A stretch of 64,000 nt of DNA from Bradyrhizobiaceae bacterium (GTDB lineage Bacteria; Pseudomonadota; Alphaproteobacteria; Rhizobiales; Xanthobacteraceae). The notes beneath the pieces were generated by a model. It was not told the origin of the DNA. It worked only from the letters and a program-made list of their open reading frames with translations, and did no database searches. Shown in pieces: positions 7,940-39,013 of the stretch (positions are counted from its first letter, which is position 1; every line of letters begins with the position of its first letter). The stretch is taken from positions 8,990 to 72,989 of the forward strand of contig JBIQLW010000019.1 in the NCBI GenBank assembly GCA_044463945.1. Direction: 5' to 3'. The position numbers and the translations under genes were made by a program.

Positions 7940-8082
7940 CTTAAGGGCGCGAAGTCACTGACGGCGGCCCGCGCCGGACGCGACGCGGGCCTCCCGATCC
8001 GATCGAAAGCCGCTTTCATTTCTCCAGCCGACTCGTTTCTCAAGACGCCGGCCCCGCGCGGGCCGGAACCGGATTTGCGTCG

Positions 8083-10194: not shown

Positions 10195-10196
10195 GC

Positions 10197-11315: not shown

Positions 11316-11320
11316 GGATC

Positions 11321-12853: not shown

Positions 12854-12916
12854 TGTCATGAGCCATCGATGAGCGCTTTTCAGCAGCCCCGTTCGCGCAG
12901 GGAGCCGGGAGGGGAC

Positions 12917-13657
12917 ATGGACGACGATCCGGAGGACGGCCGCCTGATGAGCGAGCGCATCGCCGCCGAGATCCGTAGCGCAGTTCTGAGCGGCGAGATG
13001 CGGCCGGGAATGCGCATCCGGCAGGAACTGCTCGCCGCCCATTTCGGCGCCAGCCGCATTCCGGTGCGCGAGGCGCTGAAGCAGCTTGAGAACGAGGGTC
13101 TGGTGGTGATGGCGCCGAACCGCGGCGCCTGGATCGCGGACGTCAATTCGGACGAATCCATCGAGATTTACAAGATCCGCGAGGCGGTGGAGCCGCTGGC
13201 CATCGGCGAAAGCGTGCCGAACCTGACCGACGAGGACATCGATACGCTCGACGCCATCGTGCGCGAACTGGAGCACGTCCCGACGCTTGAGGAATACATC
13301 CAGCTCGATCGCGAGTTTCATCTGCGCACTTATGCGGGGGCGCGGATGCCGCAGCTTCTGGCGATGGTCGAGCGATTCTGGAACAGCACGCAGCATTTTC
13401 GGCGGTTGTTCGTGAAGGAAGCCTATGCCAAGGATGGATTCCCGTTCTCCGATCCCCAGCATCTGCTGTTGATGGATGCGATCCGGGCGCGCGACGTCGA
13501 TGCGGCGCAGATATTGGTGCGTCTGCATATCCGCAGAACGCGCCTCGTCATCGAGACGACGGAGAGGGGGACCAGCCGGTCGCCGGTGGCCAGCCGCTCC
13601 GTCGTGCGGCGCACCCCGCCGGGCCCGGTTTATCGAAGGAGAGACAGTCATGAGTGA
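12917..13657 (+). CDS. GntR-family transcriptional regulator (FCD C-terminal domain)
   Basis: GASRIPVREALKQLENEGLV winged HTH followed by an FCD-like helical domain. ATG 12917 has a GGGAGGGG RBS; alternative start 12869. Confidence 0.9.
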   Translation: MDDDPEDGRLMSERIAAEIRSAVLSGEMRPGMRIRQELLAAHFGASRIPVREALKQLENEGLVVMAPNRGAWIADVNSDESIEIYKIREAVEPLAIGESVPNLTDEDIDTLDAIVRELEHVPTLEEYIQLDREFHLRTYAGARMPQLLAMVERFWNSTQHFRRLFVKEAYAKDGFPFSDPQHLLLMDAIRARDVDAAQILVRLHIRRTRLVIETTERGTSRSPVASRSVVRRTPPGPVYRRRDSHE

Positions 13658-14525
13658 TTTTCAGAAGATCGGCGTGGTCGGCGCCGGCATGATGGGCTCC
13701 GAGATTGCCCTGATGTTCGCGCTCGCCGGCTATCCGACGCTGCTCAGCGATCAGTCGCGCGAGGCGGCCGAGCGCGCGATCGAGCGCCTTCACGGCGTGC
13801 TCGACCGCGGCCTGCCCCGGCGGTTCTGGTCGGAGGAAGCGGCGGCCACCGCGCGCCGCCAGCTTGCGGTCGCCGATAGCCTCGATGCCTATGCCGACCG
13901 TGACCTGGTGATCGAAGCGGTGTTCGAGGACGAGGCGCTGAAGCGCGACGTGTTCAAACGGCTCGACGCCATCGTCGCGCCGGGGGCGGGGCTGGCGTCC
14001 AACACCTCGTCGATCTCCATCACCACGCTGAGTTCGGCGGTGGCGGAGCCGCGCCGCGCCCGCTTCATCGGCACGCATTTCTTCTCGCCGGTGTCGCGCA
14101 TGAAACTGGTGGAGGTGATCCCGGCCGCCGACACCGATCCCGCCTTCGCCGATGCGGTGAGCGACGTCATGACCGCGATCGGCAAGGCGCCGATCCGCGT
14201 CAAGGACGTCGTCGGCTTCGCCGTCAACCGGCTGCTGCACGCGCTGGTGCTCGAATCGATCCGCCTCGTCGAGGAAGGCGTGTGCTCGCCGGCGGATATC
14301 GACGCCGCCTGCAAGCTCGGCCTCGGGCATCCGATCGGCCCGTTCGAACTGATGGACAATACCCAGAACTCGCTGTCGCTGAGCGTGCACGAGATTCTTC
14401 ATCAGGCTTACGGCGAGCGCTTCCTGCCGCGCCCGCTGCTGCGCCAGATGGTCGCCGCCGGCTATAACGGCCGCAAGGCGGGGCGCGGGTGGCATCGTTA
14501 CGGCAGCGACGGCAAGAAGCAATGA
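13650..14525 (+). CDS. 3-hydroxyacyl-CoA (3-hydroxybutyryl-CoA) dehydrogenase
   Basis: IGVVGAGMMGSEIA Rossmann motif, HFFSPV, C-terminal dimerisation domain; overlaps the GntR stop by 8 nt. Confidence 0.92.
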   Translation: MSDFQKIGVVGAGMMGSEIALMFALAGYPTLLSDQSREAAERAIERLHGVLDRGLPRRFWSEEAAATARRQLAVADSLDAYADRDLVIEAVFEDEALKRDVFKRLDAIVAPGAGLASNTSSISITTLSSAVAEPRRARFIGTHFFSPVSRMKLVEVIPAADTDPAFADAVSDVMTAIGKAPIRVKDVVGFAVNRLLHALVLESIRLVEEGVCSPADIDAACKLGLGHPIGPFELMDNTQNSLSLSVHEILHQAYGERFLPRPLLRQMVAAGYNGRKAGRGWHRYGSDGKKQ

Positions 14526-14572
14526 CAGCGGCGCCTCGAGCCGGCGCGCGCAACCGATAGCGGAGCATCGAC

Positions 14573-15880
<1,308 letters not shown>

Positions 15881-15916
15881 CGTTTCATGATTTGACGGAA
15901 ACGCTGTGACATGAGG

Positions 15917-15993
15917 CGTCATTGCCGGGCCTGACCCGGCAATCCATCCTTTTCAGAAAGATGGATGCGCGGATCAAGTCCGCGCATGACGAC
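15917..15993. repeat. REP family B copy 1 (double hairpin)
   Basis: GCGTCATTGCCGGGCCTGACCCGGCAATCCATCC...GATGGATGCGCGGATCAAGTCCGCGCATGACGAC; near-identical inverted copy at 49366-49441. Confidence 0.7.
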
Positions 15994-16048
15994 GGGTGAT
16001 TCCGCCAAAGACGGAAAACCTCTAAATGTGTGGGACCGTGAGGTGACC

Positions 16049-16513
16049 TCAGCCCGCGGGGCGCGGCGTGCCGGACGCCGCGCGGGTCTGCGTCCGGATC
16101 GCCGGCCACACCGTGCGCCGCCAGGCGGACGCGCCGGCGTCCCACGCCACCACCTCGCCCCCGCGCAGCACGAACCACTGCGGCGCGCCCGGCAGCGTTC
16201 GCACCCGCTCGCGCAAGCCCGCGAGATCGGCCGGCCACAGCGGCTCCGCCAGCAGGTCGCGCAGCCGTGTCGCGATCACTTCACGATAACGCAGGCCGGA
16301 AAATTCGCGGCTCTCCACGAATGACGGCCGCTCGTCGCGCCGCCAGGCGCGGCACGGCCCGCAATCCTCCGCGCCGACATAGACGACGGTGATCGCGCCG
16401 CGCCCCGCCGCCGGCTGATGCGGCACGTCGGCGACCAGCACCCCGCAGCCGAGCGCGAGCGCAAGGGCGGCAGGCAAACGGCGCGAGAGCAGGGGACGGG
16501 CGGCGACTGACAT
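16049..16513 (-). CDS. Secreted/anchored thioredoxin-fold protein with a CGPC motif
   Basis: Signal/anchor MSVAARPLLSRRLPAALALALGCGVL, then VVYVGAEDCGPCRAW; divergent from the oxidase cluster. Confidence 0.6.
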   Translation of the reverse strand: MSVAARPLLSRRLPAALALALGCGVLVADVPHQPAAGRGAITVVYVGAEDCGPCRAWRRDERPSFVESREFSGLRYREVIATRLRDLLAEPLWPADLAGLRERVRTLPGAPQWFVLRGGEVVAWDAGASAWRRTVWPAIRTQTRAASGTPRPAG

Positions 16514-16547
16514 CCGCACAGCCTAGAGCCGCATGGCGGTGTCTCAC

Positions 16548-16561
16548 TTACCCAAAGTCAA
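16548..16561. promoter_or_regulatory. Degenerate Crp/Fnr (FixK-type) half-palindrome upstream of the oxidase cluster
   Basis: TTACC-CAAA-GTCAA: right half perfect, left half two mismatches. Centred 64 bp upstream of the ATG at 16619. Confidence 0.25.
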
Positions 16562-16618
16562 GGCCGCGCGCCGCGAACGGTGGCAGCTTCCTGTCAAAGG
16601 GACGTGAGGAGCACCGCC

Positions 16619-16798
16619 ATGTCGAAGACCGCGAAGCCGCCCGGCGAGCCAGCCGCCGCCGACGATGAGCCCATGCCGTTCATGCAGCGGGTGCTCGACG
16701 ATCCGTTCCTGCTTCTGTTCATCGGCGTCACCATTCCCACGATCCTCTATCTCGTCTGGGGCGTGATGGAGATCGCCAACGTCCCGGTCGGCAAATAG
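16619..16798 (+). CDS. Small single-TM protein, putative accessory subunit of the oxidase
   Basis: ATG 16619 with a GAGGAG RBS: MSKTAKPPGEPAAADDEPMPFMQRVLDDPFLLLFIGVTIPTILYLVWGVMEIANVPVGK. Placement resembles the small subunits of ba3/cbb3 oxidases. Confidence 0.55.
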   Translation: MSKTAKPPGEPAAADDEPMPFMQRVLDDPFLLLFIGVTIPTILYLVWGVMEIANVPVGK

Positions 16799-16810
16799 GA
16801 GAGCGATCCG

Positions 16811-17362
16811 ATGGCCATTACCTCTCCCGAACGCCGCGTCTGGTGGAACGAGCCGGTCGAGCGCGTCGAACTGATCTGGATCGCCGTGGCGCTGCTGTGG
16901 GGTCTGTTCATGTTCTTCTTCATGATCGCCTGGCACTTCATCGGCGGTCAGAATCTCGCAACCGAAGCCTACAAGGTGGTGCCGAGCGCCTATCAGGAGA
17001 AGGTCGACGCCTTCGCCGAGAAGTACCAGGTCGGCGACGAATCCGGCACGCCGATCGTGCGGCCGCCGGCCGGCGAAGATATCTATCTGCTCGGGCGGCT
17101 GTGGCAGTGGTGGCCGGTGCTGCAACTGGAAAAGGGCCAGAGCTACCGCCTGCATCTGTCGTCGGTCGACTGGCAGCACGGCTTCTCGCTGCAACCCACC
17201 AACATCAACATCCAGGTTCATCCCGGCTACGAGCACGTCATCGTCCTGACGCCGACCGAAGCCGGCGAATTCGGCATCATCTGCAACGAGTTCTGCGGCA
17301 TCGGCCATCACACCATGACCGGCAAGATCATCGTCGTCGATAGCAAGGCGGAGGCGAAGTAA
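16811..17362 (+). CDS. Heme-copper oxidase subunit II with CuA centre (single-TM, B-family-like)
   Basis: CuA ligands WQHGFSL ... CNEFCGIGHHTM; one N-terminal TM; 183 aa. Confidence 0.9.
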   Translation: MAITSPERRVWWNEPVERVELIWIAVALLWGLFMFFFMIAWHFIGGQNLATEAYKVVPSAYQEKVDAFAEKYQVGDESGTPIVRPPAGEDIYLLGRLWQWWPVLQLEKGQSYRLHLSSVDWQHGFSLQPTNINIQVHPGYEHVIVLTPTEAGEFGIICNEFCGIGHHTMTGKIIVVDSKAEAK

Positions 17363-17363
17363 C

Positions 17364-19088
17364 ATGACCACCTTCGAGGGCGTTGTGGCGGCGACGCGCG
17401 AGCGGGCCGCGAATTTCCGCACCTGCCAGTTCACCGGCCTCAAGGTCGATATCGCCGCGCAGCGGCTGATTATCGCCAACGCGGTCGCGGCCGTGGTGTT
17501 TCTCGCCGTCGGCGGCCTGATGGGATTGATGGTGGCGCTGACGCGCTGGCCGGCGGTGCATCTTCTGCCCGCCGAGTGGTTCTATCTGATCCTCACCGCG
17601 CACGGCGCCAACGTGCTGTTGTTCTGGATCATCTTCTTCGAGATCGCGGTGCTCTATTTCGCCTCCGCGGTACTGCTCAATTCGCGCATCGCGGCGCCGA
17701 AAACCGGCTGGCTCGGCTTCGTGCTGATGGTGGCCGGCGCCATCATCACCAACATCGCCGTGCTGCAAGGCGAATCGACGGTGATGTTCACCTCCTATCC
17801 GCCGATGATGGCGCGGCCGCATTTCTATCTCGGCATCATCCTGTTCGCGGTCGGCGCGCTGATCGGCGTCGGGCTGTTTTTCGCGACGCTGATGATCGCC
17901 AGGGCGGAGCGTACCTACGAGGGCTCGATCCCGCTGGTCACCTTCGGCGCGCTGACGGCGGCGATCATCGCCGTGTTCACGCTGGTGTCGGGGGCGATCA
18001 TCCTGGTTCCGACCATGCTGTGGTCGATGGGGCTGATCCGCGACATCGATCCGTTGATGTACAAGCTGGTGTGGTGGGCGATGGGCCACTCCTCGCAGCA
18101 GATCAACGTCTCCGCGCACGTCTCGGTGTGGTACATGATCGGCGCGCTGGTCTTGGGAGCCAAGCCGCTGTCGGAGAAGGTCAGCCGCGGCGCGTTCTTC
18201 CTCTACATCCTGTTCCTGCAACTGGCCTCGGCGCACCATCTGCTGGCCGAGCCGGGAATCAGCGCCGAGTGGAAGATCGTCAACACCAGCTACATGATGT
18301 ATCTGGCGGTGCTCGGCTCGATGATCCACGGCCTCACGGTGCCCGGCTCGATCGAGGCAGCGCAGCGCCGCAACGGTTTCAACCGGGGCGTGTTCGAGTG
18401 GCTGCGCAAGGCGCCGTGGGGCAATCCGGCGTTCTCCGGCATGTTCCTGTCGCTGGTGATGTTCGGCTTCATCGGCGGCATCTCCGGCGTGGTGCTCGGC
18501 ACCGAGCAGCTCAACGTGCTGATGCACAACACCATCTATGTCCCCGGCCACTTCCACGGCACGGTGGTCGCCGGCACCACGCTGGCCTTCATGGCCGGCA
18601 CCTATCTGGTGCTGCCGCTGATCTTCCAGCGCGACATCATCTGGCCGGGGCTGGCGCGGATCCAGCCGTACCTGTTCGGCATCGGCGCCGCCGGCATCTC
18701 GATGTTCATGATGGGGGCGGGCACGCTCGGCGTGGCGCGGCGGCACTGGGACATCAACTTCACCGACGCGGTGATCGGCTTCCAGCATTCGCCCGGCGCG
18801 TTCCTGATGATGGGGCTGAACGGCATCAGCGCCATCCTCGCGGCGCTCGGCGGCATCCTCTACATCCTGATCGTGGTCGGCACCGCGTTGTTCGGCAAGA
18901 AGATCGTGCCGGGCCACAAGATGACCTTCCCGCTGCATTCGAGCGCCAACGTGGTGTCGAAATACGGCAGCGAAGGCACGATCAAGCTGCCCGGCACCAT
19001 CGTTCTGGTGACGATCTTCTTCCTGTCCTTCGTGCTCTATTACTTCGTCAACTGGAAGTATCTGTCCGACCTGTGGCAGTTCCGCTGA
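17364..19088 (+). CDS. Heme-copper oxidase subunit I, divergent (B-family-like); canonical cross-link Tyr position is Gln
   Basis: All six His ligands present: LTAHGANV, WWAMGHSSQQI, LASAHHLL, YVPGHFHGTV. GHSSQQ replaces GHP(E/I)VY. Confidence 0.93.
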   Translation: MTTFEGVVAATRERAANFRTCQFTGLKVDIAAQRLIIANAVAAVVFLAVGGLMGLMVALTRWPAVHLLPAEWFYLILTAHGANVLLFWIIFFEIAVLYFASAVLLNSRIAAPKTGWLGFVLMVAGAIITNIAVLQGESTVMFTSYPPMMARPHFYLGIILFAVGALIGVGLFFATLMIARAERTYEGSIPLVTFGALTAAIIAVFTLVSGAIILVPTMLWSMGLIRDIDPLMYKLVWWAMGHSSQQINVSAHVSVWYMIGALVLGAKPLSEKVSRGAFFLYILFLQLASAHHLLAEPGISAEWKIVNTSYMMYLAVLGSMIHGLTVPGSIEAAQRRNGFNRGVFEWLRKAPWGNPAFSGMFLSLVMFGFIGGISGVVLGTEQLNVLMHNTIYVPGHFHGTVVAGTTLAFMAGTYLVLPLIFQRDIIWPGLARIQPYLFGIGAAGISMFMMGAGTLGVARRHWDINFTDAVIGFQHSPGAFLMMGLNGISAILAALGGILYILIVVGTALFGKKIVPGHKMTFPLHSSANVVSKYGSEGTIKLPGTIVLVTIFFLSFVLYYFVNWKYLSDLWQFR

Positions 19089-19135
19089 GCGCGATCCGGT
19101 CATGTTGAAACCGTCGTCCCAGATGCAGCGCGCGT

Positions 19136-19172
19136 CCTCTCCCCGCCGGGGAGGGGGCCGGGGGGAGGGGGC
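19136..19172. repeat. G-run/C-run element (family E copy 2) between oxidase subunit I and ctaB::sco
   Basis: CCTCTCCCCGCCGGGGAGGGGGCCGGGGGGAGGGGGCG; four or more G-runs on the coding strand. Confidence 0.5.
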
Positions 19173-19202
19173 GCGCGCGAGCGACGAACAAGGAGGCGAG
19201 AC

Positions 19203-20861
19203 ATGCGCGCCGTGCTGACCACGACCGTATCGCTGCTCAAGCTGCGCATCGGCATCGCGATCGCCGCCAGCGCGGTCGCGGGCGCGGCGGCGGCGCAGGG
19301 CGCGGCGCGCGAGGCGTGGGAGGTGCTGGCGCTGGCGCTCGCGGTGCTCGGCGCCTCGGGCGCGGCCGGCGCGTTCAACCACTATTACGAACGCGACCTC
19401 GACCGCCACATGCGGCGCACCGAGAGCCGGCCGTTCGCCAGCGGGATGTTGCGGCCGGGCGCGGGGTGGCTCACGGCCTTCGCCGCGCTCGCGGTGCTGT
19501 CGCTGGCGCTGGCCTATGTCGTCGGCGGCGCGGTCAGCGCCGTCTACGTGCTGCTCGGCGGCCTGACCTATGGCGTGGTCTACACCGTGTGGCTCAAGCG
19601 CCGCACGCCGATGAACATCGTGGTCGGCGGGTTGTCCGGCAGCTTCGCCGTGCTGGCCGGCGCGGCGGCGGTCGATCCGATGCCGCAGACGGTGCCGGTG
19701 CTGCTGGCGCTGGTGCTGTTCCTGTGGACGCCGCCGCATTTCTGGGCGCTCGCCGCGGCGCGCCGCGACGACTACGCCAATGCCGGCTTCCCGATGCTGC
19801 CGGTGGTCGCGCCTGAGCGGGTGTGGACCACGGCGATCCTCGCCCACACCGCGGCGCTGACGGCGCTGTCGCTGGTGCCGCTATGGTTCGGCATGGGGCT
19901 GATCTACGGCATCGGTGCAGGCGCTGGCGGCGCGGTGTTCGTGTGGCGAAGCTGGCGGCTTTACCGCGCGCCGAGTCGCGCCACCGCGATGGCGACCTTC
20001 GGCGCGTCGCTGATCCACCTCACATTGCTGACGCTGGCGGTGGTGCTGGACGCGGCGGTGGTGACCAAGGCGTCGGCCACGCCGGCCGGCGGAGCGCTCG
20101 ATCCGCGCGTCGTGCTGGAGCGAAGCGAGGCGGCGATCGGCACGACGCTCGGCGATTACACGCTGCGCGATCCGCAGGGCCGCCGCATCGCGCTGGCCGA
20201 TTATCGCGGCCGCCCGCTGGTCATCAGTCTGGTCTACTCTAGTTGCAGCACCACCTGCCCGGTGACGACGCAGCATCTCATCGACGCGGTGGCGCAGGCG
20301 CGCCAGAGTCTCGGGGCCGACCGCTTCGCGGTGCTGACCATCGGCTTCGACGCGCGCCGCGACAGCCCGCAGCGCATGGCGGCGTTCGCCGGCCGGCAGG
20401 GCATTCCGGCCAGCGGCTGGGACGTCGCCTCCGGCGACGAGGCGACGCTGGCGGCGCTGATGCGGGATCTCGGCTTCGGCTATCAGGCGGTCGCCGGCGG
20501 TTTCGATCACATCGCCCAGACCACGATCATCGACGCCGGAGGGCGAGTCTACCGTCAGGTCTACGGCGACGACTTCCCGCTGCCGGTGTTCATCGAGCCC
20601 TTGAAGGAAGCAGTGTTCGGCATCACCACCCGCGCGCTGACCGTCTCGGCGCTGATCGACCGCTTAAGTTTCCTCTGCACCGTCTACGATCCCGGACAGG
20701 GCCGCTACCGCACCAGCTACGCCATCGCGCTCGGCATCGGCATCGGCGCCCTGTCGCTGCTGATCGCCGGCATCGTCTTCGTCCGCGCCTGGATGCGCAA
20801 CCGCCGGCTGGAAGCGTTGCGCCGGGTTCCGCCGCCGCGGCTGCTCGGACGACAGACATGA
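19203..20861 (+). CDS. ctaB: Fusion protein: heme O synthase (protoheme IX farnesyltransferase, UbiA family) + SCO1/SenC copper chaperone domain + C-terminal TM
   Basis: FNHYYERDLDRHMRRTESRPFASG (CtaB/CyoE motif) and multiple TMs. Then RPLVISLVYSSCSTTCPVTTQHL (CxxxC) ... GGFDHIAQTTIID (Sco His), then TM AIALGIGIGALSLLIAGIVFV. Confidence 0.9.
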   Translation: MRAVLTTTVSLLKLRIGIAIAASAVAGAAAAQGAAREAWEVLALALAVLGASGAAGAFNHYYERDLDRHMRRTESRPFASGMLRPGAGWLTAFAALAVLSLALAYVVGGAVSAVYVLLGGLTYGVVYTVWLKRRTPMNIVVGGLSGSFAVLAGAAAVDPMPQTVPVLLALVLFLWTPPHFWALAAARRDDYANAGFPMLPVVAPERVWTTAILAHTAALTALSLVPLWFGMGLIYGIGAGAGGAVFVWRSWRLYRAPSRATAMATFGASLIHLTLLTLAVVLDAAVVTKASATPAGGALDPRVVLERSEAAIGTTLGDYTLRDPQGRRIALADYRGRPLVISLVYSSCSTTCPVTTQHLIDAVAQARQSLGADRFAVLTIGFDARRDSPQRMAAFAGRQGIPASGWDVASGDEATLAALMRDLGFGYQAVAGGFDHIAQTTIIDAGGRVYRQVYGDDFPLPVFIEPLKEAVFGITTRALTVSALIDRLSFLCTVYDPGQGRYRTSYAIALGIGIGALSLLIAGIVFVRAWMRNRRLEALRRVPPPRLLGRQT

Positions 20862-22426
20862 TCGCCCTGGTGCGCCGGGGCATCGCGCGCGGATTCGACG
20901 CCGCCGAGCGCGGCCTCAACCGTCTCGCCGGTCCGGCGCTCAACCCGCTGGCGCAACTCGGCGCGCTCGGCTTCTTCCTGTTCTGGATCGTCGCGGTCAG
21001 CGGCATCTACCTGTTCATGCTGTTCGACACCGGCGTCGAGAACGCCTACGCGTCGGTCGAGTGGTACTCGACGCGCCACGCCTGGCACGCCGGCGTGATG
21101 CGCAGCTTCCACCGCTACGCCTCCGACATGATGGTCGTGGTGATGGCGCTGCATCTCTTGCGGGAGTTCGCGCGCGACCGCTATCGCGGGGCCCGCTGGT
21201 TCTCGTGGTTCACCGGCGTGCCGGTGATCTGGTTCCTCTACATGTCGGGCATCACTGGCTACTGGCTGGTGTGGGACCAGTTGGCGCAATACATCGCCAC
21301 CACCTCGACCGAACTGCTCGACTGGCTGCCGATCTTCGGCGAGCCGATCGCCCGCAATTTCCTGGCGCCGTCGAGCCTGTCGAACCGCTTCTTCACGCTG
21401 CTGGTGTTTTTGCACATCGCGGTGCCGCTGGTGCTGCTGTTTACGCTGTGGATCCATATCCAGCGCATCACCCGGCCCAAGGTGAACCCGCCGCGCACGC
21501 TCGCGGCGCTGACCATGCTGGCGCTGCTCGCGGTGTCGATCGTCAAGCCGGCGCTGAGTCAGGGCGCGGCGGACCTTGCGAAAGTGCCGAGCCCGGTCGG
21601 GCTCGACTGGTTCTATCTGCCGCTCTATCCGCTGGCCGACGATTCGCCCGGCGCGCTGTGGGGGCTGCTCGCGGCGGCGACCGTGATGCTGGCGGCGATG
21701 CCGTGGCTGCCGCCGCTGCGGCGGATGAAGCCGGCGACCGTCGATCTGGATCATTGCAACGGCTGCGGCCGCTGCGTCGAGGACTGCCCCTACGAGGCTC
21801 TGCAACTGGTGCCGCGCACCGACGACCTGCCCTATGAGCTTGAGGTCGCGGTCAATGCCGACAAATGCGTGAGCTGCGGCATCTGCACCGGCTCGTGCCC
21901 GTCCTCGACGCCGTTCCGCAGCGTCGGCCCGCTCGATACCGGCATCGACCTGCCGGACGTCACCTTCGCCTCGATGGGCGAGCGGCTCCATGAACTGGCC
22001 GCGCGGGACGCGCCGTCGCCGCGTTTGCTGGTGATCGGCTGCTGGCACGGCGCGGCCGGGGCGCGCGACGAAAGCACCCTGTCGCTGCCGTGCGTATCCG
22101 CCGCCCCGCCGTCGCTGATCGATTACGCGCTGAGCCGCGGTCTGGCCGATGGCGTCGTCATCGCCGGCTGCTCCGAGAGCGCCTGCTACAACCGGCTCGG
22201 CGTCGCGTGGATGCAGCAGCGCATCGCCGGCGAGCGCGACCCGTATCTGCGGGCGCGGGTGCCGCGCGATCGTATCCTCGAGGTGTGGGCCTCGCCGACC
22301 GAGGGCGCGCGGCTGACGCGCGAGATCGACGCCTTCAGAGCGCGGCTCGCCGCGCTTGCCGAGGAGCCGCCGCCACCACAGCAGGTTACCGGGACGCCGG
22401 CGAGCGTCAGGGAGGCGGCATCGTGA
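20858..22426 (+). CDS. Fusion protein: diheme cytochrome b (6 TM) + 2x[4Fe-4S] ferredoxin + MvhD/FlpD-like hydrogenase iron-sulfur domain
   Basis: ATGA overlap with the ctaB::sco stop. Two H-x13-H pairs (FHRYASDMMVVVMALH; LHIAVPLVLLFTLWIH). CNGCGRCVEDCP and CVSCGICTGSCP. C-terminal LLVIGCWHG...LPCVSAAPPSLIDYALSRGLADGVVIAGCSESACYN. Confidence 0.85.
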   Translation: MIALVRRGIARGFDAAERGLNRLAGPALNPLAQLGALGFFLFWIVAVSGIYLFMLFDTGVENAYASVEWYSTRHAWHAGVMRSFHRYASDMMVVVMALHLLREFARDRYRGARWFSWFTGVPVIWFLYMSGITGYWLVWDQLAQYIATTSTELLDWLPIFGEPIARNFLAPSSLSNRFFTLLVFLHIAVPLVLLFTLWIHIQRITRPKVNPPRTLAALTMLALLAVSIVKPALSQGAADLAKVPSPVGLDWFYLPLYPLADDSPGALWGLLAAATVMLAAMPWLPPLRRMKPATVDLDHCNGCGRCVEDCPYEALQLVPRTDDLPYELEVAVNADKCVSCGICTGSCPSSTPFRSVGPLDTGIDLPDVTFASMGERLHELAARDAPSPRLLVIGCWHGAAGARDESTLSLPCVSAAPPSLIDYALSRGLADGVVIAGCSESACYNRLGVAWMQQRIAGERDPYLRARVPRDRILEVWASPTEGARLTREIDAFRARLAALAEEPPPPQQVTGTPASVREAAS

Positions 22427-22935
22427 GCGCGCCGGTGTCAGTGCCGCGGCTGGCCGGGCTGTTCGTCGTGCTGGCGGCGGTGACGGCGTTCGCCGCCGCC
22501 TTCTCCAATGCGCCGGCCTACCGGCAGATTCCCGCCGATACCGGCGTCATCAAGTTCAGCTTCAGCCACAGCGCCGACCGCGCGCGGGAGTGCCGCCGCC
22601 GCACCCCGGAGGAGCTGGCGAAGCTGCCGCCCAACATGCGCCGGCCGCTCGATTGCCCGCGTACCCGGCGCGGCATTTTCGCCGAGCTTGCGATCGACGA
22701 CGTCGTGGTGTTCAGCGCGGAATTGCCGCCGTCCGGCTTCGCCAAGGACGGCCCCTCGCAGATTTATCGCCGCTTCACGGTGGCGGCCGGCTCCCACACC
22801 GTGGCGGCGCGCTTGCGCGATACGCCGCGCGAGAGCGGCTTCGACCATGAGCGCATCGAGACGGTGACGGTCAAGCCGGGGCAGAGCCTGGCGCTCGATT
22901 TCCGCCCCGAGCACGGCGGCTTCATCTGGCGTTAA
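22423..22935 (+). CDS. Membrane-anchored hypothetical protein, last gene of the oxidase cluster
   Basis: GTG 22423 overlapping the previous stop, GGAGG RBS, N-terminal anchor LAGLFVVLAAVTAFAAAF, no recognisable domain. Confidence 0.55.
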   Translation: MSAPVSVPRLAGLFVVLAAVTAFAAAFSNAPAYRQIPADTGVIKFSFSHSADRARECRRRTPEELAKLPPNMRRPLDCPRTRRGIFAELAIDDVVVFSAELPPSGFAKDGPSQIYRRFTVAAGSHTVAARLRDTPRESGFDHERIETVTVKPGQSLALDFRPEHGGFIWR

Positions 22936-23044: not shown

Positions 23045-23827
23045 ATGACCCCCGCCGACTGGTCGATCGTCAACCGCGTTCCCGTGTTCCGCTCGATGGG
23101 CGAGGCGCTGAGCCATCGCATCGTCCGCAACTATGCGCGCGGCGAGTTGCTGTTTCAGCAGGGTGATCCGGCGACCTGCTGCTTCCTGGTGCTCGACGGC
23201 TGGGTCAAGCTCTACCGGCAGACGGCGGACGGCGACGAGGTGGTGGTGTCGCTGTTCACCGCCGGCGAAAGCTTCGCCGAAGCGATGATGTTTCGCGGCG
23301 GCCGCTACCCTGCGACGGCGGAGGCGGTGACCTCGGTGCGGCTCCTGCACATCGACGGCCAGTTGCTGCGCGACGCCATCCTGCGCGATCCGCAGCTTTC
23401 GTTCGACATGCTGGCGGCATCGTCGCTGCACCTGCGGCGGCTGGTCGAGCAGGTCGAGCAGTTGAAAGCGCAATCGGCGCCCAAGCGCATCGCCAGCTTC
23501 CTGCTCTCGCTCACCGCCGCCCGTCGCGGCCCGGCGCGGATCGAACTGCCTTACGAGAAGCTGCTGATCGCCAACCGCCTCGGCATGAAGCCCGAGAGCT
23601 TTTCGCGGGCGCTGCGGCAGCTTCGCGCCGTCGGCGTCTTCGTCGAGCGCGAGTTCGTTCGCATCGATGACGTCGGCCGCCTATCCGGCTTTGTCGAAGG
23701 CGGCGAGCCGGACGGCGTGCCGTGCCCGATGATCCGCACCCCGGCGCAATGCGGCAGCTTCGGCGCCGGCTGCATCGAGGCCGCCTATCGCGCGCCGCTG
23801 CGCGCCCCGCGCCGCTCGCGCGCGTGA
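23045..23827 (+). CDS. Crp/Fnr-family transcriptional regulator with a Cys-containing C-terminal extension
   Basis: cNMP-binding-like beta-roll (LFQQGDPATCCFLVLDGWVKLYR), HTH LIANRLGMKPESFSRALRQL. Tail ...GVPCPMIRTPAQCGSFGAGCIEAAY. Start 23045 preferred over 22976, which overlaps the box. Confidence 0.88.
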   Translation: MTPADWSIVNRVPVFRSMGEALSHRIVRNYARGELLFQQGDPATCCFLVLDGWVKLYRQTADGDEVVVSLFTAGESFAEAMMFRGGRYPATAEAVTSVRLLHIDGQLLRDAILRDPQLSFDMLAASSLHLRRLVEQVEQLKAQSAPKRIASFLLSLTAARRGPARIELPYEKLLIANRLGMKPESFSRALRQLRAVGVFVEREFVRIDDVGRLSGFVEGGEPDGVPCPMIRTPAQCGSFGAGCIEAAYRAPLRAPRRSRA

Positions 23828-24014: not shown

Positions 24015-24638
24015 TCAGGCTTGATCCTTCAGCGCGCCGCCGCGCAGCGCCAGCCGGATCAGTTCGGACAGGCTGTGCGCCTGCATCTTGGTCATGACGT
24101 TGGCGCGATAGACCTCGATGGTCCGCGGGCTGATGTCGTGCTCGCGCGCGATCTGCTTGTTGGAGAGGCCGGCGATCAACCCGTCCATCACCTGCCGCTC
24201 GCGCGGGCTGAGGCTGGCCAGCCGCGCGGCGATGTCCTGCGCGGCCGCCTCGCTGCGCAGCCGGTCGTCGGCCTGCCTGAGCGCGGTGTCGATGGTCCCG
24301 ATCAGGCGCTCGTCCTCGAACGGCTTTTCGACGAAATCGAACGCGCCGAGCTTCATCGCCTCGACCGCCAGCGGAATGTCGCCGTGGCCGGTCATGATGA
24401 TGACCGGAAGCGTCGAGGCTTCGTTGCGAAGGCGGCGCAGCAGCGTCATGCCGTCGATGCCCGGCATCCGCACGTCCGACACCACGCAGCCGAAGGGCAG
24501 CGTCGCATGAACGTCGAGGAAGCTCGCGGCGCTGTCGAACAGCGCGACGTCGAAGCCCGCCGCGCCGAGCAGGAAGTCGAGCGAATCCCGCATCGCGGGA
24601 TCGTCGTCGATGACGTAGACGCTGGCGTTACGCGACAT
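24015..24638 (-). CDS. fixJ: Two-component response regulator FixJ
   Basis: [14 protein letters not shown]...[10 protein letters not shown] receiver plus LuxR-type [25 protein letters not shown]; overlaps the fixL stop. Confidence 0.95.
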
Positions 24639-26187
24639 CCGGCAGGTCCTCGTCCGGCGCGGCCGGCAGCGTCAGGTGAAACGTCGCGCCGCCGGCGGCG
24701 TTGTTCTCTCCCCACATGCGGCCGCCGTGCGCTTCCACGATCGACCGGCTGATTGAAAGCCCGACCCCCATGCCTGTGTCCTTGGTGGTGAAGAAAGTCT
24801 GAAACAGGTTGGCGAGCGCCACCTCGCTGAACCCGTGGCCGGTGTCCATCACCGACAGCGCGACCGTGTCGTCGGCGGCGCGCGCGCTGGACACGATCAG
24901 TTCGCGCCGCGCTACGCCCGCCATCGCCTCCAGCGCGTTGCGGAACAGGTTGACCAGAACCTGCTGGATCTGCACCCGGTCGACCAGCACGCGGTCACAC
25001 GTCGGATCGAGTTCGGAGCGCAGCATCACGTTCTGCTCGCGCGCGCCGGACAACCCCAGCGCGCCGGCTTCCTCGACCAGCCTGGCGAGGCTTTCGACGC
25101 GCTTTTCGGACTCGCGCCGGCTGACGAAATCCCGCAGGCGGCGAATGATCTGGCCGGCGCGCAGCGCCTGCTCGGCGGCGCGATCCAGCGCCATCCCGAC
25201 GCGGGCGGCATTGGGATCGGGGCTTGTCTCAAGCAGGCGGCGCGATCCCTTCATGTAGTTGCTGATGGCGGCGAGCGGCTGGTTGAGTTCGTGGGCCAGC
25301 GCCGAGGCCATCTCGCCCATGGCGCTCAGCCGCGAGACGTGGATCAGCTCCGATTGCAGTTCCTGAAGTTTTGCCTGGGTCTGCTGGTGCTCGGTGAGGT
25401 CGCGCACGAAGCCGGTGAAATGCCGCTCGCCGCCGGCGGTCATCTCGCCGACCGACAGGTGCATGGGAAAGGTCGAGCCGTCGCGGCGCTTTCCAGTGAC
25501 GATGCGGCCGATGCCGATGATGTGGCGTTCGCCGGTGGATTTGTAGCGCTCAAGGTAGCCGTCGTGCCGGCTGCGGTCCGGCTCCGGCATGAGAATGCTG
25601 ACGTTCTGCCCGACCGCCTCGGCTTCGGAGAAGCCGAACAGCCGCTGGGCGGCGGAGCTGAAGCGCTGGATGATGCCGTGGTCGTCGATCACGATCATCG
25701 CGTCCGGAACGGTATCGAGGATCGAATGGAGATGGCCCTCGCGTGCGCGCAACGCCTCCTCCAACTGCTTCTGATCGTCGATATCGAGCACCGCGCCGCA
25801 TACGCGGACGGGCGTGCCGTCCTCGTTCCTGACCAGGCCGCCGCGGGCGCGCACCCAGCGGCTTTTTCCGGACGTCTTGCGCAGCCGGTACTGAAGATCG
25901 AATCTAGCGCCTGTCTCGACGGTCCGTTGCAGCGCGGCCCGCGTGCGCTCCTGATCGTCGGGGTCGAGCCGCGACAGGAAAAGATCCAACGTCACCGCGG
26001 CGTCGGGCGCGACGCCGAACAACTGCCGCGCCGCGTTGGACCAGAACAACTCCCCGGTGGCGAGCGCAAGGTCCCAGATGCCGATGCCCGATCCGTCGAT
26101 GCCGCGTTGCAGATCGCGGTCGAGAAACAGCCCGCTCAACGCGGTTGAGCCGTCGTCGATCTCGGCGGTGGTGTTTCGGTGAGGCAT
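24628..26187 (-). CDS. fixL: Oxygen-sensing heme-PAS histidine kinase FixL
   Basis: Near-identical blocks to Bradyrhizobium FixL as remembered: [42 protein letters not shown] (heme His), [35 protein letters not shown]-box. Start MPHRN at 26187. Confidence 0.95.
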
Positions 26188-26326
26188 CGCGTCATGGGTC
26201 CGCAGGCTTCGAAGACACATTCTCACTTGCCCGTCGCGGTCAGCATATCGCCGGAGGGGCGGGCGGACCAGAGCGGCAGCGGGGGACGATCGGTCGCGGG
26301 CGAGGGGCCGCCGTTGCCATCCCGCG

Positions 26327-27195: not shown

Positions 27196-27352
27196 TTATA
27201 ATATTTGAATGCTACGTACAAGCCCGGAACCTTGAGAAGGCTCAAGCGGTCCGCGGCGAGCGGTCCCTACAGTCATAAGGTCCCGGTTTGGAGAAGCAAG
27301 ACGCCAACGCCGCCGGCGGACACCGGCGGCAACCTCGAACGGAGGGAATGCC

Positions 27353-37561: not shown

Positions 37562-37575
37562 TTGATAAGGGTCAA
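37562..37575. promoter_or_regulatory. Perfect FixK/Fnr-type box upstream of phaC
   Basis: TTGAT-AAGG-GTCAA, centred 81 bp upstream of the phaC ATG (37487). Confidence 0.6.
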
Positions 37576-38367: not shown

Positions 38368-38435
38368 GGACCATCTCCTCATCGGGGTGGTCCTTGGTAC
38401 GCGATACCGGCGTCGTTCAATATTGCGGCCGATAT

Positions 38436-38499: not shown

Positions 38500-38886
38500 C
38501 TAGCGGCCGGCCAGTTGCCGCACGCAGGCGACCAGGCTGTCCTCAAGATGCGGCTTCAGCAGGATATGGTCGATCCCGGCGGCGGCCGCCCGCGCTTCGA
38601 GGGAGCGGTCGGGATATCCGGTGATCAGGATCACCGGCGCGGTCATGTTGCGCTGGCGCAGCCGCGCCGCCACTTCGAGCCCGTTGATCCGCGGCATCTT
38701 GTAGTCGACCACGAGGCAATCGACCTCAACCGGGTCGATCGTCTCCAACAGCGCCGCGGCGTCGCCGAAGGTGCGGACGGTGAAGCCGTGCGTCTCCAGC
38801 AGGAACCGCAACGACTGGAGGACATCCGCATCGTCGTCGAGAACGCAGATCCGATAGTCCCTGAGCCCGGCGTCTTCATCTGGCAT
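38500..38886 (-). CDS. Stand-alone CheY-like receiver domain protein upstream of fixK
   Basis: ICVLDDDADVLQSL...LVVDYKMPRINGLEV...ILITGY; no output domain; ATG 38886. Confidence 0.85.
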   Translation of the reverse strand: MPDEDAGLRDYRICVLDDDADVLQSLRFLLETHGFTVRTFGDAAALLETIDPVEVDCLVVDYKMPRINGLEVAARLRQRNMTAPVILITGYPDRSLEARAAAAGIDHILLKPHLEDSLVACVRQLAGR

Positions 38887-38938
38887 CGCGCGTCCCGTTT
38901 GGCGGCGGCTGACCATAGGAGCGCGGCGGCCGGATGCC

Positions 38939-38952
38939 TTGATGTACGTCAA
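38939..38952. promoter_or_regulatory. Perfect FixK/Fnr-type box in the divergent receiver/usp intergenic region
   Basis: TTGAT-GTAC-GTCAA, centred 68 bp upstream of the usp ATG (39014) and 59 bp upstream of the receiver ATG (38886). Confidence 0.65.
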
Positions 38953-39013
38953 CATGCGGCGGACAATGCCGTGACACATACGGTCCGAAGCCCGAACTGC
39001 GGAGAGTTAGATC

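What the first reader, a model, noticed from the sequence alone, without database searches (positions are those of the whole stretch)
17364..19088. Heme-copper oxidase subunit I lacks the canonical cross-linked tyrosine (GHSSQQ instead of GHPxVY): candidate NO reductase-like enzyme
Seen: all six metal-ligand histidines are present (LTAHGANV; WWAMGHSSQQI; LASAHHLL; YVPGHFHGTV). The residue four positions after the first CuB histidine, which is the His-cross-linked Tyr in A- and B-family O2 reductases (GHPEVY, GHPIVY), is Gln here. Subunit II (16811-17362) keeps a full CuA site (H...CNEFCGIGHHTM) and has a single TM, as in B-family enzymes. Established: Hemp, Gennis and co-workers proposed several B-family-related HCO clades lacking this Tyr as nitric oxide reductases (eNOR, sNOR, bNOR and others). 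At least one has been confirmed biochemically, and an sNOR cluster with senC is noted in nitrifier genomes. Inference: this enzyme may belong to one of those clades or a further one. I cannot assign the clade without a tree. Caveat: C-family oxidases supply the Tyr from another helix, and a VWY lies 12-14 residues after the CuB His, about 10 past the canonical position.
Basis: partly seen in the sequence, partly recalled or inferred. Interest (0 to 1): 0.7.

Follow-up and report, generated by a model that had tools for sequence, protein, structure and literature searches.

The report
eNOR-type nitric oxide reductase operon
This is a complete operon for an eNOR-family nitric oxide reductase, a relative of ba3-type oxygen reductases whose catalytic tyrosine is always replaced by glutamine; the family is known and has been tested biochemically, but public databases mislabel it as a "cbb3-type cytochrome c oxidase".

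Summary
Subunit I (17364-19088) keeps all six metal-ligand histidines, and alignment to Thermus ba3 puts Gln246 where the cross-linked Tyr237 sits. The "VWY" tyrosine (Y257) is the ba3 K-channel residue Y248, not a substitute.

The clade can now be assigned. Gln at this position is the published eNOR signature; sNOR and bNOR have Asn. All 80 retrieved relatives, out of at least 566 species genomes, carry GHxxQQ[I/V]N. They form a clade with 99/100 NJ bootstrap support, separate from ba3-type oxidases (100/100).

Four members have the His/Lys low-spin haem ligand pair described for some eNORs. The K-channel residues, including Glu20 of subunit II, are conserved.

The operon is a small subunit, II, I, haem O synthase-SCO, a cytochrome b/2x[4Fe-4S]/FlpD fusion and a 170-aa protein. 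This matches the published eNOR layout.

cd1 nitrite reductase lies within 10 kb in 17 of 50 well-flanked relatives, including cultured Bradyrhizobium. In Thermus NAR1 the homologue sits beside nirS and the NO-sensor operon nsrRST. FixLJ, a Crp/Fnr regulator and a degenerate FNR-type box point to microoxic control.

Verdict: a new member of a known family. The near-universal cytochrome b/Fe-S partner remains unexplained.

The parts
16049..16519 (-). Divergently transcribed 156-aa protein with a hydrophobic N-terminus and a thioredoxin-like CGPC motif (YVGAEDCGPCRAW). It is a conserved neighbour of the operon. A possible role in periplasmic thiol reduction for Cu-site assembly is inference only.
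   Evidence: 39% identity (E=1e-30) to the gene at the same position and orientation in Bradyrhizobium CP030048.1 (L088 gene table). No Pfam or NCBIfam hit.
16548..16561 (+). Degenerate FNR/FixK-type box TTACCCAAAGTCAA, centred about 64 bp upstream of the first start codon of the operon.
   Evidence: In a MAFFT alignment of upstream regions it aligns with TTGA-N6-TCAA boxes that are perfect in L049, L042, L060, L031, L086 and L058, and L046 carries another perfect box upstream. L071 has the same sequence as the window, and L047/L056 have TTAACCGCGGTCAA. There is no perfect box here, so function is inferred.
16619..16798 (+). 59-aa single-TM small subunit, analogous to ba3 subunit IIa (gene order IIa-II-I, recalled from memory for the ba3 cbaDBA operon).
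   Evidence: tblastn finds it upstream of subunit II in 65 of 84 loci, including Thermomicrobium; the Thermus NAR1 ORF at that position was not hit but shows the motif by eye. Conserved motif P.mQ..lDnpfLLLflGv...Y..WG. The exact protein is on record.
16811..17362 (+). Subunit II: one TM helix plus a periplasmic cupredoxin domain with a binuclear CuA site (H123, C158, C162, H166, M169). Glu20 corresponds to ba3 subunit II Glu15, the K-channel entrance.
   Evidence: Best PDB match is ba3 subunit II at 9e-18, with ligands aligned. qHGFSL, CNEfCGiGHH.M and the Glu before the TM helix are at least 90% conserved in 84 loci.
17364..19088 (+). Subunit I (574 aa), the catalytic subunit. Haem and B-site metal ligands are H80, H242, H291, H292, H396 and H398. 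Gln245-Gln246-x-Asn248 replaces Val-Tyr-x-Trp of ba3. K-channel-like residues are Y257, S319, H322 and T325.
   Evidence: AF2 model with pLDDT 85 and pTM 0.89. Foldseek top hits are B-family oxidases 7deg and ba3 at E about 1e-19 and TM about 0.75-0.78.
19203..20861 (+). Fusion of haem O synthase (CtaB/CyoE, residues about 1-290) with an SCO1/SenC copper chaperone (CSTTC at residue 348) and a C-terminal TM helix. It would supply prenylated haem and assemble the Cu site(s).
   Evidence: TIGR01473 at 5e-74 and PF02630 at 1.4e-12. SenC is present in 47/50 and CtaB in 29/50 well-flanked relatives. The exact protein is on record.
20858..22426 (+). 522-aa fusion protein. It has a cytochrome b6/b-like dihaem domain (H85, H99, H186, H200), a PEWY-like loop (DWFYLPLY at 250), one more TM helix, then cytoplasmic 2x[4Fe-4S] (C300..., C337...) and an FlpD/MvhD-like domain. 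It is a candidate electron-input module, with function unknown.
   Evidence: PF00033 at 2.7e-20, Fer4 and PF02662. Best PDB match is cytochrome b6 at 1.4e-18, with all four His aligned. Present in 50/50 relatives with at least 6 kb of downstream flank. His, Cys and DWFY are conserved.
22423..22935 (+). 170-aa protein with one N-terminal TM helix and two conserved Cys. It belongs to no known family. It may be the 'eNOR scaffold protein of unknown function' of the F. straubiae preprint (not verified).
   Evidence: Present in 42/50 well-flanked relatives directly after the cytochrome b fusion. No Pfam hit. The exact protein is on record.
23045..23827 (+). Crp/Fnr-family regulator (FtrB/NnrR-like, without an Fnr-type Cys cluster). 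The ORF opens at 22976 but the likely start is 23045. It probably acts as the operon-linked regulator.
   Evidence: cNMP_binding plus HTH_Crp_2. The FtrB model aligns from residue 25. 46% identity (E=4e-67) to the Crp gene directly upstream of the Bradyrhizobium operon. A Crp homologue lies in 12/50 neighbourhoods.
24015..26226 (-). FixJ (24015-24638) and FixL (24628-26226), the oxygen-sensing two-component system. This is context, not part of the enzyme.
   Evidence: NCBIfam FixJ at 333 bits (cut-off 255) and FixL at 900 bits (cut-off 850).

Best explanation
The cluster 16619-22935 encodes an eNOR-family nitric oxide reductase with its maturation and accessory genes.

Shown:
- The enzyme is a three-subunit, ba3-like haem-copper oxidoreductase: a small TM subunit, a CuA subunit II and a catalytic subunit I.
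- Subunit I has a low-spin haem (H80/H398) and a high-spin haem (H396) facing a B-site metal held by H242, H291 and H292.
- The redox-active cross-linked Tyr needed for four-electron O2 reduction is replaced by Gln246, within an invariant Q-Q-x-N patch.

Inferred from the characterised Rhodothermus marinus eNOR and from family features:
- Electrons enter at periplasmic CuA from a soluble donor. A c550-type cytochrome is co-encoded in Bradyrhizobium relatives.
- They pass through the low-spin haem to the binuclear site, where 2 NO + 2 e- + 2 H+ give N2O + H2O.
- Protons come from the cytoplasm through a conserved K-channel analogue: Glu20 of subunit II, then T325, Y257, H322, S319 and Q246. NO reduction would therefore be electrogenic.
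- CtaB supplies prenylated haem and the fused SCO domain loads copper.
- Expression is probably microoxic and/or NO-responsive, through the adjacent Crp/Fnr regulator and the FixLJ-FixK cascade acting on a degenerate FNR-type box.

Not resolved: the role of the always-co-encoded cytochrome b/Fe-S/FlpD protein, the identity of the B-site metal (Fe or Cu), and whether the host respires NO or only detoxifies it.
For: 1. Gln sits at the Tyr position by alignment to ba3. Gln is the published eNOR signature, against Asn in sNOR/bNOR and Glu in cNOR/qNOR (PMC8756737 Table A4).
2. At least 566 GTDB species genomes encode relatives. All 80 retrieved have GHxxQQ[IV]N.
3. NJ tree of 112 sequences over 481 columns: the Q clade has 99/100 support, the classical B family including T. 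thermophilus ba3 has 100/100, and the sister group is Tyr-retaining GHxxQY archaeal sequences (72/100). This matches the reported K-family/eNOR sister relation (bioRxiv 10.1101/592808).
4. The clade holds taxa reported to have eNOR: Thermus, Chloroflexota, Rhodothermales, Rhodocyclales, haloarchaea and Alphaproteobacteria (PMC8756737, PMC8879329, PMC11214002). The window protein is 58% identical to a Rhodothermales member over conserved columns.
5. Four members (Thermus, Aquificaceae) have GHFK, the His/Lys low-spin haem ligation described for some eNORs (PMC11214002).
6. The ba3 S309 equivalent and the other K-channel positions are invariant, as is the subunit II Glu.
7. The order II-I-haem O synthase-SCO is called very common for eNOR operons (bioRxiv 10.64898/2026.01.22.701106). 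A CtaA-CtaB fusion follows the T. roseum gene.
8. Full-length cd1 nirS (46-58% identity to Thermus NirS) lies within 10 kb in 17/50 well-flanked loci. In two complete Bradyrhizobium genomes the operon is followed by hemerythrin, a c550 cytochrome, NosR/ApbE, nirS and nirE.
9. In T. thermophilus NAR1, which lacks norCBH, the homologue sits between nirS/nirK-type genes and nsrRST (PMC7694296).
10. R. marinus eNOR reduces NO and does not reduce O2 (PMC11214002). F. straubiae eNOR transcripts are the most abundant HCO transcripts under denitrifying conditions (2026 preprint).
11. The AF2 model resembles B-family oxidases most closely.
Against: - No activity data exist for this protein or any close (>60% identical) relative.
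- I could not retrieve the sequence of the characterised R. marinus enzyme, so the link to it is through family signatures and Rhodothermales MAG proxies.
- The 64-kb window holds no nirS, nirK, nosZ, nar or nap gene.
- The operon has no CtaA, although eNOR is reported to use haem As.
- The FNR-type box is degenerate.
- FixLJ/FixK control is equally typical of high-affinity oxygen reductases.
Confidence: 0.85

Rival explanations
1. The chemistry is the same (NO to N2O), but the physiological role is NO detoxification or scavenging under microoxia in an organism that is not a denitrifier. It would not be a respiratory step of denitrification.
For: There are no nir, nos, nar or nap genes anywhere in the 64-kb window. 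The operon sits in a FixLJ/FixK low-oxygen regulon region. Two thirds of well-flanked relatives have no nirS within 10 kb. The F. straubiae preprint also raises a detoxification role.
Against: A conserved cytoplasm-facing proton channel suggests energy conservation. Close relatives (82-86% identical) in Bradyrhizobium and Xanthobacteraceae have nirS 4-5 kb beyond the operon. The rest of this genome is unseen.
Confidence: 0.3
2. It is a genuine terminal oxygen reductase for low-oxygen respiration, as has been argued for sNOR in Nitrosomonas. It would work without the His-Tyr cofactor or use another tyrosine.
For: The fold and subunits are B-family-like. It sits beside FixLJ, like cbb3 oxidases. 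SCO and CuA argue for copper use. A preprint on N. europaea argues that Tyr-less sNOR may be an oxidase (10.1101/765727). The clade-specific Y310 and Y313 were not tested structurally.
Against: Gln is invariant at the Tyr position in 85/85 sequences, while the sister clade keeps Tyr in an otherwise identical patch. There is no Tyr at the C-family position (L285). Y257 and Y281 are also present in Tyr-containing relatives. R. marinus eNOR showed no O2 reduction with several donors (PMC11214002). The family is linked to nirS and NsrR.
Confidence: 0.06
3. It belongs to sNOR, bNOR or a further unnamed Tyr-less clade rather than eNOR.
For: A senC/SCO gene follows the structural genes, as in the nitrifier norSY-senC-orf1 cluster. 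No curated sNOR, bNOR or R. marinus eNOR reference sequence could be put in my tree.
Against: sNOR and bNOR have Asn, not Gln, at the Tyr position (PMC8756737 Table A4). sNOR lacks the S309 equivalent, which is invariant here (PMC11214002). bNOR is confined to Bacillales. The taxa, the His/Lys variants, the K-family sister group and the operon layout all fit eNOR.
Confidence: 0.03

Closest known systems
eNOR family of haem-copper NO reductases (Hemp & Gennis 2008; Murali et al. 2024, PMC11214002). The characterised member is from Rhodothermus marinus DSM 4252. The 'cytochrome a1-like' protein of Magnetospirillum magnetotacticum, called 'ba3-a1' by Degli Esposti, also belongs here.
   Same: It shares Gln in place of the cross-linked Tyr, a CuA subunit II, a B-family-like K channel with the S309 equivalent, the operon II-I-haem O synthase-SCO, a link to microoxic conditions, and frequent adjacency to nitrite reductase genes.
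   Different: Haem O synthase and SCO are fused into one 552-aa protein. There is no CtaA in the operon. In this window nirS is not nearby. The enzyme is about 58% identical to Rhodothermales members, and no activity has been measured.
Ferrigenium straubiae eNOR operon (bioRxiv 10.64898/2026.01.22.701106)
   Same: It has eNOR II, eNOR I, haem O synthase, sco1 and a protein of unknown function, plus a cytochrome b/[Fe-S] protein encoded alongside.
   Different: F. straubiae has two cytochrome b fusions, one of them with FAD/NADH domains. The window has one, with an FlpD/MvhD-like domain. The preprint treats these genes as unusual, whereas here they are found in 50/50 well-flanked relatives.
Thermus thermophilus ba3 cytochrome c oxidase (B family; PDB 1EHK/1XME)
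   Same: It is among the closest solved structures (E=1e-42; TM about 0.75-0.78; Foldseek ranks the B-family oxidase 7DEG marginally first). It has the same three-subunit architecture and gene order, a single-TM CuA subunit, and the K-channel positions Y248, S309, T315 and Glu15 of subunit II.
   Different: Identity is only 29%. V236-Y237-x-W239 becomes Q-Q-x-N, T312 becomes His, and F272 becomes Tyr. The two fall in separate clades (100/100 and 99/100 bootstrap).
sNOR (norSY-senC-orf1 of ammonia oxidisers)
   Same: It is a Tyr-less, B-related HCO with a CuA subunit and an adjacent senC gene, and is upregulated at low O2.
   Different: sNOR has Asn at the Tyr position and lacks the S309 equivalent. 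It is a different clade.
cNOR/qNOR
   Same: The proposed reaction is the same. A carboxamide or carboxylate side chain sits four residues after the first B-site His (Gln here, Glu in cNOR/qNOR).
   Different: [quoted passage not shown] None appears among the top 50 structural matches.

Membership tests
eNOR | HCO subunit I with all six canonical His ligands | tested here: met
   H80, H242, H291, H292, H396 and H398 align to ba3 H72, H233, H282, H283, H384 and H386.
eNOR | Gln replaces the cross-linked Tyr (His+4 on helix VI) | tested here: met
   Q246 aligns to ba3 Y237. It is invariant in 85/85 clade members. The signature is given in PMC8756737 Table A4.
eNOR | Falls in a clade distinct from B-family O2 reductases, together with recognised eNOR-bearing taxa | tested here: met
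   NJ tree: Q clade 99/100 and B family 100/100. The clade includes Thermus, Thermomicrobium/Chloroflexota, Rhodothermales, haloarchaeal and alphaproteobacterial sequences.
eNOR | Clusters with the biochemically characterised R. marinus DSM 4252 enzyme | not testable with these tools
   That sequence could not be retrieved. A homologue search seeded with a Rhodothermales MAG gave no hit named R. marinus in the top 120. The supplements of PMC11214002 are not held.
eNOR | CuA-containing subunit II | tested here: met
   H123, C158, C162, H166 and M169 align to the ba3 CuA ligands and are conserved in 84 loci.
eNOR | Conserved K-channel analogue resembling that of ba3, including the S309 equivalent | tested here: met
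   S319, T325, Y257 and subunit II E20 are conserved. T312 is replaced by an invariant His322.
eNOR | Haem As cofactors; CtaA often in the operon | tested here: inconclusive
   CtaB is present and fused to SCO. No CtaA was found in the 64-kb window by tblastn. T. roseum has a CtaA-CtaB fusion downstream. Haem type cannot be read from sequence.
eNOR | NO reductase activity without O2 reductase activity | not testable with these tools
   This needs biochemistry. It has been shown only for R. marinus eNOR (PMC11214002).
sNOR | Asn at the Tyr position | tested here: not met
   The residue is Gln246. sNOR has Asn (PMC8756737 Table A4).
sNOR | S309 equivalent missing, with a Glu in a different location | tested here: not met
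   Ser319 is invariant at the S309 position. The criterion comes from PMC11214002.
B-family O2 reductase (ba3 type) | His-Tyr cross-link motif GHPxVY | tested here: not met
   The motif is GHSSQQ.
B-family O2 reductase (ba3 type) | Groups with ba3 in a phylogeny | tested here: not met
   It is excluded from the B clade, which has 100/100 support. Identity to ba3 is 29%.
C-family (cbb3), the label used in public annotation | Tyr supplied from helix VII, six residues before the HH pair (position recalled from the P. stutzeri cbb3 structure, Y251/H257-H258) | tested here: not met
   Position 285 is Leu.
C-family (cbb3), the label used in public annotation | CcoO/CcoP cytochrome c subunits | tested here: not met
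   Subunit II is a CuA cupredoxin and the operon has no c-type cytochrome subunit.
cNOR/qNOR | Glu at His+4; NorC or a fused N-terminal domain; no CuA | tested here: not met
   The residue is Gln rather than Glu, and a CuA subunit is present. No NOR structure appears in the top 50 Foldseek hits.

The most novel reading that the evidence does not exclude
The cytochrome b6-like / PEWY-like / 2x[4Fe-4S] / MvhD-like fusion protein (20858-22426) and the 170-aa protein (22423-22935) accompany essentially every enzyme of this subgroup. They may be integral parts of a previously undescribed eNOR supercomplex. One possibility is that quinol is oxidised at a Rieske-less Qo-type site. One electron would go to CuA and NO reduction. 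The other would cross the membrane through two b haems to cytoplasmic Fe-S clusters, using the very high NO/N2O potential to drive reduction of a low-potential cytoplasmic acceptor. Alternatively, a cytoplasmic reductant could feed eNOR directly.
Probability: 0.12. Interest if true: 0.75.

Novelty: new member of a known kind. Interest (0 to 1): 0.3.

Why it matters
eNOR-type enzymes are reported to make up a large part of the environmental NO-reducing, N2O-forming capacity. [quoted passage not shown]

Recognising the operon in soil Xanthobacteraceae and in cultured Bradyrhizobium at 82% identity (e.g. B. arachidis, B. liaoningense) changes how their denitrification and N2O budgets should be read. 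It also offers genetically tractable hosts for studying a possibly energy-conserving NO reductase.

The comparison with the Tyr-retaining sister clade isolates Tyr to Gln as the key active-site change. The universal but unexplained cytochrome b/Fe-S partner is a concrete open question about how electrons reach these enzymes.

Tried and rejected
- The first AF2 run used 26 close homologues and gave pLDDT 51, so it was discarded. A 67-sequence alignment gave pLDDT 85. Coordinates are not exposed, so Tyr-to-His242 distances could not be measured.
- I tried to obtain labelled sNOR references from plasmid tblastn hits. The Deinococcus, Brevibacillus, Caballeronia and Methylobacterium hits all proved to be Tyr-containing B-type oxidases.
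- I tried to reach the R. marinus eNOR sequence through a Rhodothermales-seeded homologue search and cluster look-ups. No named R. marinus entry was returned.
- Supplements of PMC11214002 and the Hemp & Gennis 2008 chapter are not held.
- Exact searches for FixK/FNR boxes found none upstream of the operon. The degenerate site was recognised only by aligning orthologous upstream regions.
- sNOR membership was considered because of senC and rejected: Gln rather than Asn, and S309 present.
- The 'cbb3-type' database label was rejected: no helix-VII Tyr, a CuA subunit, and a B-family fold.
- Y257 and Y281 were rejected as replacement tyrosines. Both also occur in relatives that keep the canonical Tyr, and they lie 15 and 10 residues towards the cytoplasmic side of the metal ligands.
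Full report
**1. The observation**

The ORF at 17364-19088 (+) is a real gene.
- It is 574 aa, has third-position GC of 0.93 and matches Pfam COX1 at E=1e-62.
- The identical protein is on record on a 77.7-kb NCBI contig, together with all its operon partners.

A phmmer search of PDB sequences gives T. thermophilus ba3 subunit I as best hit (E=1e-42).
- Its alignment pairs ba3 H72, H233, H282, H283, H384 and H386 with H80, H242, H291, H292, H396 and H398.
- It pairs ba3 Y237 with Gln246.
- The 'VWY' tyrosine is Y257 (+15 from H242, not +12 to +14). It pairs with ba3 Y248, a K-channel residue also present in every Tyr-containing relative.
- The C-family solution places a Tyr six residues before the HH pair (position recalled from the P. 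stutzeri cbb3 structure, Y251/H257-H258). It is absent here, because that position is Leu285.

Subunit II (16811-17362) best matches ba3 subunit II (9e-18). All CuA ligands align, and it has one TM helix.

**2. What it is**

Table A4 of PMC8756737, adapted from Hemp & Gennis 2008, lists the residue at the Tyr position for each HCO family:

| Family | Residue |
|---|---|
| O2 reductases | Tyr |
| cNOR/qNOR | Glu |
| sNOR and bNOR | Asn |
| gNOR | Asp |
| eNOR | Gln |

A HMMER search of 1.84 billion cluster representatives, followed by alignment, shows four classes around the query:
- GHxxQQ sequences: the query, a 57% identical metagenome representative, and a haloarchaeon at 39%.
- GHxxQY archaeal sequences that keep the Tyr (Hodarchaeales, Thermoproteota).
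- An odd FHxxHY class.
- Classical GHPxVY B-family enzymes, at 33% identity or less.

A scan of one genome per GTDB species found at least 566 genomes encoding relatives.
- The 80 best come from Chloroflexota, Nitrospinota, Nitrospirae, Bdellovibrionota, Aquificaceae, Rhodothermales, Leptospiraceae, Gemmatimonadales, Woeseiaceae, Steroidobacteraceae, Rhodocyclales, Bradyrhizobium and Xanthobacteraceae.
- Every one has GHxxQQ[I/V]N.

A tblastn search of plasmids added a Defluviimonas plasmid (76% identity), Thermus thermophilus megaplasmids (45%) and the Thermomicrobium roseum megaplasmid (45%).

In a neighbour-joining tree (112 sequences, 481 columns, 100 bootstraps):
- the Gln clade is monophyletic in 99 replicates;
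- the classical B family, including T. thermophilus ba3, is monophyletic in 100;
- the Gln clade joins the GHxxQY sequences in 72.

This matches the statement that eNOR and the Tyr-containing 'K family' are close relatives (bioRxiv 10.1101/592808).

Four members (Thermus, Aquificaceae) have GHFK instead of GHFH. That is the His/Lys low-spin haem ligation noted for some eNORs (PMC11214002).

The ba3 S309 equivalent, which PMC11214002 says is kept in eNOR and bNOR but lost in sNOR, is invariant here as Ser319.

The window protein is 58% identical to a Rhodothermales member over conserved columns and 29% to ba3.

An AF2 model built on 67 diverse family members (pLDDT 85, pTM 0.89) is most similar to B-family oxidases. 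These are 7DEG and ba3, at E about 1e-19 and TM 0.75-0.78. A-family enzymes follow, and no cNOR or qNOR appears in the top 50.

I therefore file it as eNOR, not sNOR. The one test I could not run is direct clustering with the R. marinus DSM 4252 sequence, which I could not retrieve.

**3. Anatomy of the operon**

Gene calls were verified by exact look-up.

| Coordinates | Product |
|---|---|
| 16619-16798 | 59-aa single-TM subunit, found by tblastn in 65/84 loci incl. Thermomicrobium; the Thermus ORF shows the motif by eye; gene order matches ba3 IIa-II-I |
| 16811-17362 | subunit II |
| 17364-19088 | subunit I |
| 19203-20861 | haem O synthase fused to SCO1/SenC with a CSTTC motif |
| 20858-22426 | 522-aa cytochrome b/Fe-S/FlpD fusion |
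| 22423-22935 | 170-aa membrane-anchored protein of no known family |

The 522-aa fusion has these parts:
- a dihaem cytochrome b6/b-like domain with all four His conserved;
- a PEWY-like DWFYLPLY loop;
- one more TM helix;
- a cytoplasmic 2x[4Fe-4S] domain and an FlpD/MvhD-like domain.

A tblastn panel was run over 84 eNOR-type loci. Among the 50 GHxSQQ-type loci with at least 6 kb of downstream sequence:

| Gene | Loci |
|---|---|
| Cytochrome b/Fe-S fusion | 50/50 |
| SenC | 47/50 |
| Small subunit | 43/50 |
| 170-aa protein | 42/50 |
| CtaB | 29/50 |
| Hemerythrin | 29/50 |
| cd1 nitrite reductase within 10 kb | 17/50 |

The nirS hits are full length, at 46-58% identity to Thermus NirS.

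In two complete Bradyrhizobium genomes the operon is preceded by a Crp/Fnr gene. It is followed by hemerythrin, a CycA-like cytochrome c550, NosR/ApbE, nirS and nirE.

In T. thermophilus NAR1 the homologue lies between nirS/nirJ/multicopper-oxidase genes and an Rrf2 regulator. The literature notes that this strain lacks norCBH, that the two oxidase-like genes sit immediately upstream of nsrRST, and that they may use NO (PMC7694296).

The order II-I-haem O synthase-sco1 is described as very common for eNOR in the F. straubiae preprint (10.64898/2026.01.22.701106). SCO-containing 'ba3-a1' operons of Magnetospirilla are equated with eNOR in PMC6431628 and PMC8879329.

**4. How it most likely works**

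Shown by sequence:
- a ba3-like enzyme with CuA, two haem sites and a three-His B-site;
- an invariant Gln-Gln-x-Asn patch where ba3 has Val-Tyr-x-Trp;
- conserved polar residues at the ba3 K-channel positions: subunit II Glu20 for Glu15, T325 for T315, Y257 for Y248, H322 for T312 and S319 for S309.

The Tyr-retaining sister sequences share the first Gln, Asn248, H322, Y281 and E93. Tyr to Gln is therefore the discriminating change.

Inferred:
- Without the redox-active Tyr the enzyme cannot supply the fourth electron for O2 reduction.
- It can still do the two-electron reaction 2 NO to N2O, as measured for R. marinus eNOR, which did not reduce O2 (PMC11214002).
- Electrons enter at CuA from a periplasmic carrier.
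- Protons come from the cytoplasm, so the reaction would be electrogenic.
- CtaB and SCO mature the cofactors.

Regulation:
- The Crp/Fnr gene just downstream (likely start 23045) is 46% identical to the one upstream of the Bradyrhizobium operon.
- FixJ and FixL score above their NCBIfam cut-offs.
- The window has four perfect TTGA-N6-TCAA boxes against 0.19 expected.
- The operon's own upstream region carries TTACCCAAAGTCAA at 16548-16561. This aligns with perfect boxes in seven relatives.
- This fits the report that eNOR needs microoxic conditions for expression.

Unknown: the B-site metal, the haem type (no CtaA in the window), and the role of the cytochrome b/Fe-S protein.

**5. Rivals**

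- *Pure oxygen-reductase role.* The invariance of Gln, the R. marinus data and the nirS/NsrR contexts argue against it. The FixLJ context and the untested Y310/Y313 leave a small probability.
- *sNOR or bNOR membership.* This fails two tested features: Asn at the Tyr position, and loss of the S309 equivalent.
- *Detoxification rather than respiration.* This remains open, because the window has no other denitrification gene and the rest of the genome is unseen.

**6. Novelty and verdict**

The family was proposed in 2008 and verified biochemically in 2024, and the operon type has been described. This is a new member of a known kind, from an uncultured Xanthobacteraceae-like bacterium (97-98% identical proteins in Xanthobacteraceae MAGs).

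Three things here go somewhat beyond the literature I could read:
- the cytochrome b/Fe-S/FlpD fusion and the 170-aa protein are near-universal partners, not peculiarities of Ferrigenium;
- an FNR-type box is conserved upstream of the operon;

Interest is modest, at 0.3.

Noticed in passing
Proteins P0183, P0190, P0213, P0251 and P0261 (cluster representatives; P0183 is from a Dehalococcoidia MAG): This is an HCO-like class with unusual metal-site residues. Helix VI reads F-H-x-x-H-Y. Helix VII has Y-H where H-H is expected. The proximal ligand motif is G/A-Y-F/L-H instead of G-H-F-H, so a Tyr would replace the high-spin haem ligand. The class is monophyletic at 100/100 and groups with the eNOR plus GHxxQY clade. 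I could not match it to any described family.
   Followed up: partly
window 20858-22426 and 22423-22935, and the same genes in L001 and L014-L089: A cytochrome b6-like / PEWY-like / 2x[4Fe-4S] / FlpD fusion protein accompanies the eNOR genes in 50/50 well-flanked relatives. A 170-aa protein of no known family accompanies them in 42/50. There is no Rieske protein in this window's operon. Their function is unknown.
   Followed up: partly
window 16049-16519 (-): This is a 156-aa ORF with a signal-like N-terminus and a thioredoxin-type CGPC motif. It has no Pfam or NCBIfam hit. It is conserved (39% identity, E=1e-30) at the same divergent position next to the Bradyrhizobium eNOR operon.
   Followed up: partly
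window 27232-27245, 37562-37575, 38939-38952 and 40916-40929: There are four perfect TTGA-N6-TCAA (FixK/FNR-type) boxes where 0.19 are expected by chance. The window also holds FixL, FixJ, a FixK-like gene (37681-38382, -) and a single-domain response regulator (38500-38979, -). The box at 37562 lies about 80 bp upstream of the PHB synthase gene phaC (35565-37487, -). This suggests a compact low-oxygen regulon region.
   Followed up: partly
L088/L089 (Bradyrhizobium CP030048.1 and CP078066.1), locus coordinates 7850-21700: Cultured Bradyrhizobium strains carry the eNOR operon in one block with hemerythrin, a CycA-like cytochrome c550, NosR/ApbE-like genes, cd1 nirS and nirE. A DUF1858 gene and a second Crp gene lie upstream.
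   Followed up: partly
L002 (T. thermophilus NAR1 megaplasmid) 11983-13668; L034, L045 and L054 (Aquificaceae): These eNOR homologues have GHFK instead of GHFH, so Lys would be the second axial ligand of the low-spin haem. In the Aquificaceae loci nirS lies 3.7 kb downstream and the cytochrome b fusion is upstream on the opposite strand.
   Followed up: partly
window 17364-19088 and all homologues: [quoted passage not shown] Subunit II is often called 'hypothetical protein'. Genome-based inventories of denitrification would therefore miss this NO reductase.
   Followed up: yes
window 17418-17426 (subunit I residues R19-T20-C21): An N-terminal R-x-C motif precedes TM1. Arg19 and Cys21 are invariant in all Gln-clade sequences, and the region is absent from ba3. 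Its role is unknown.
   Followed up: no
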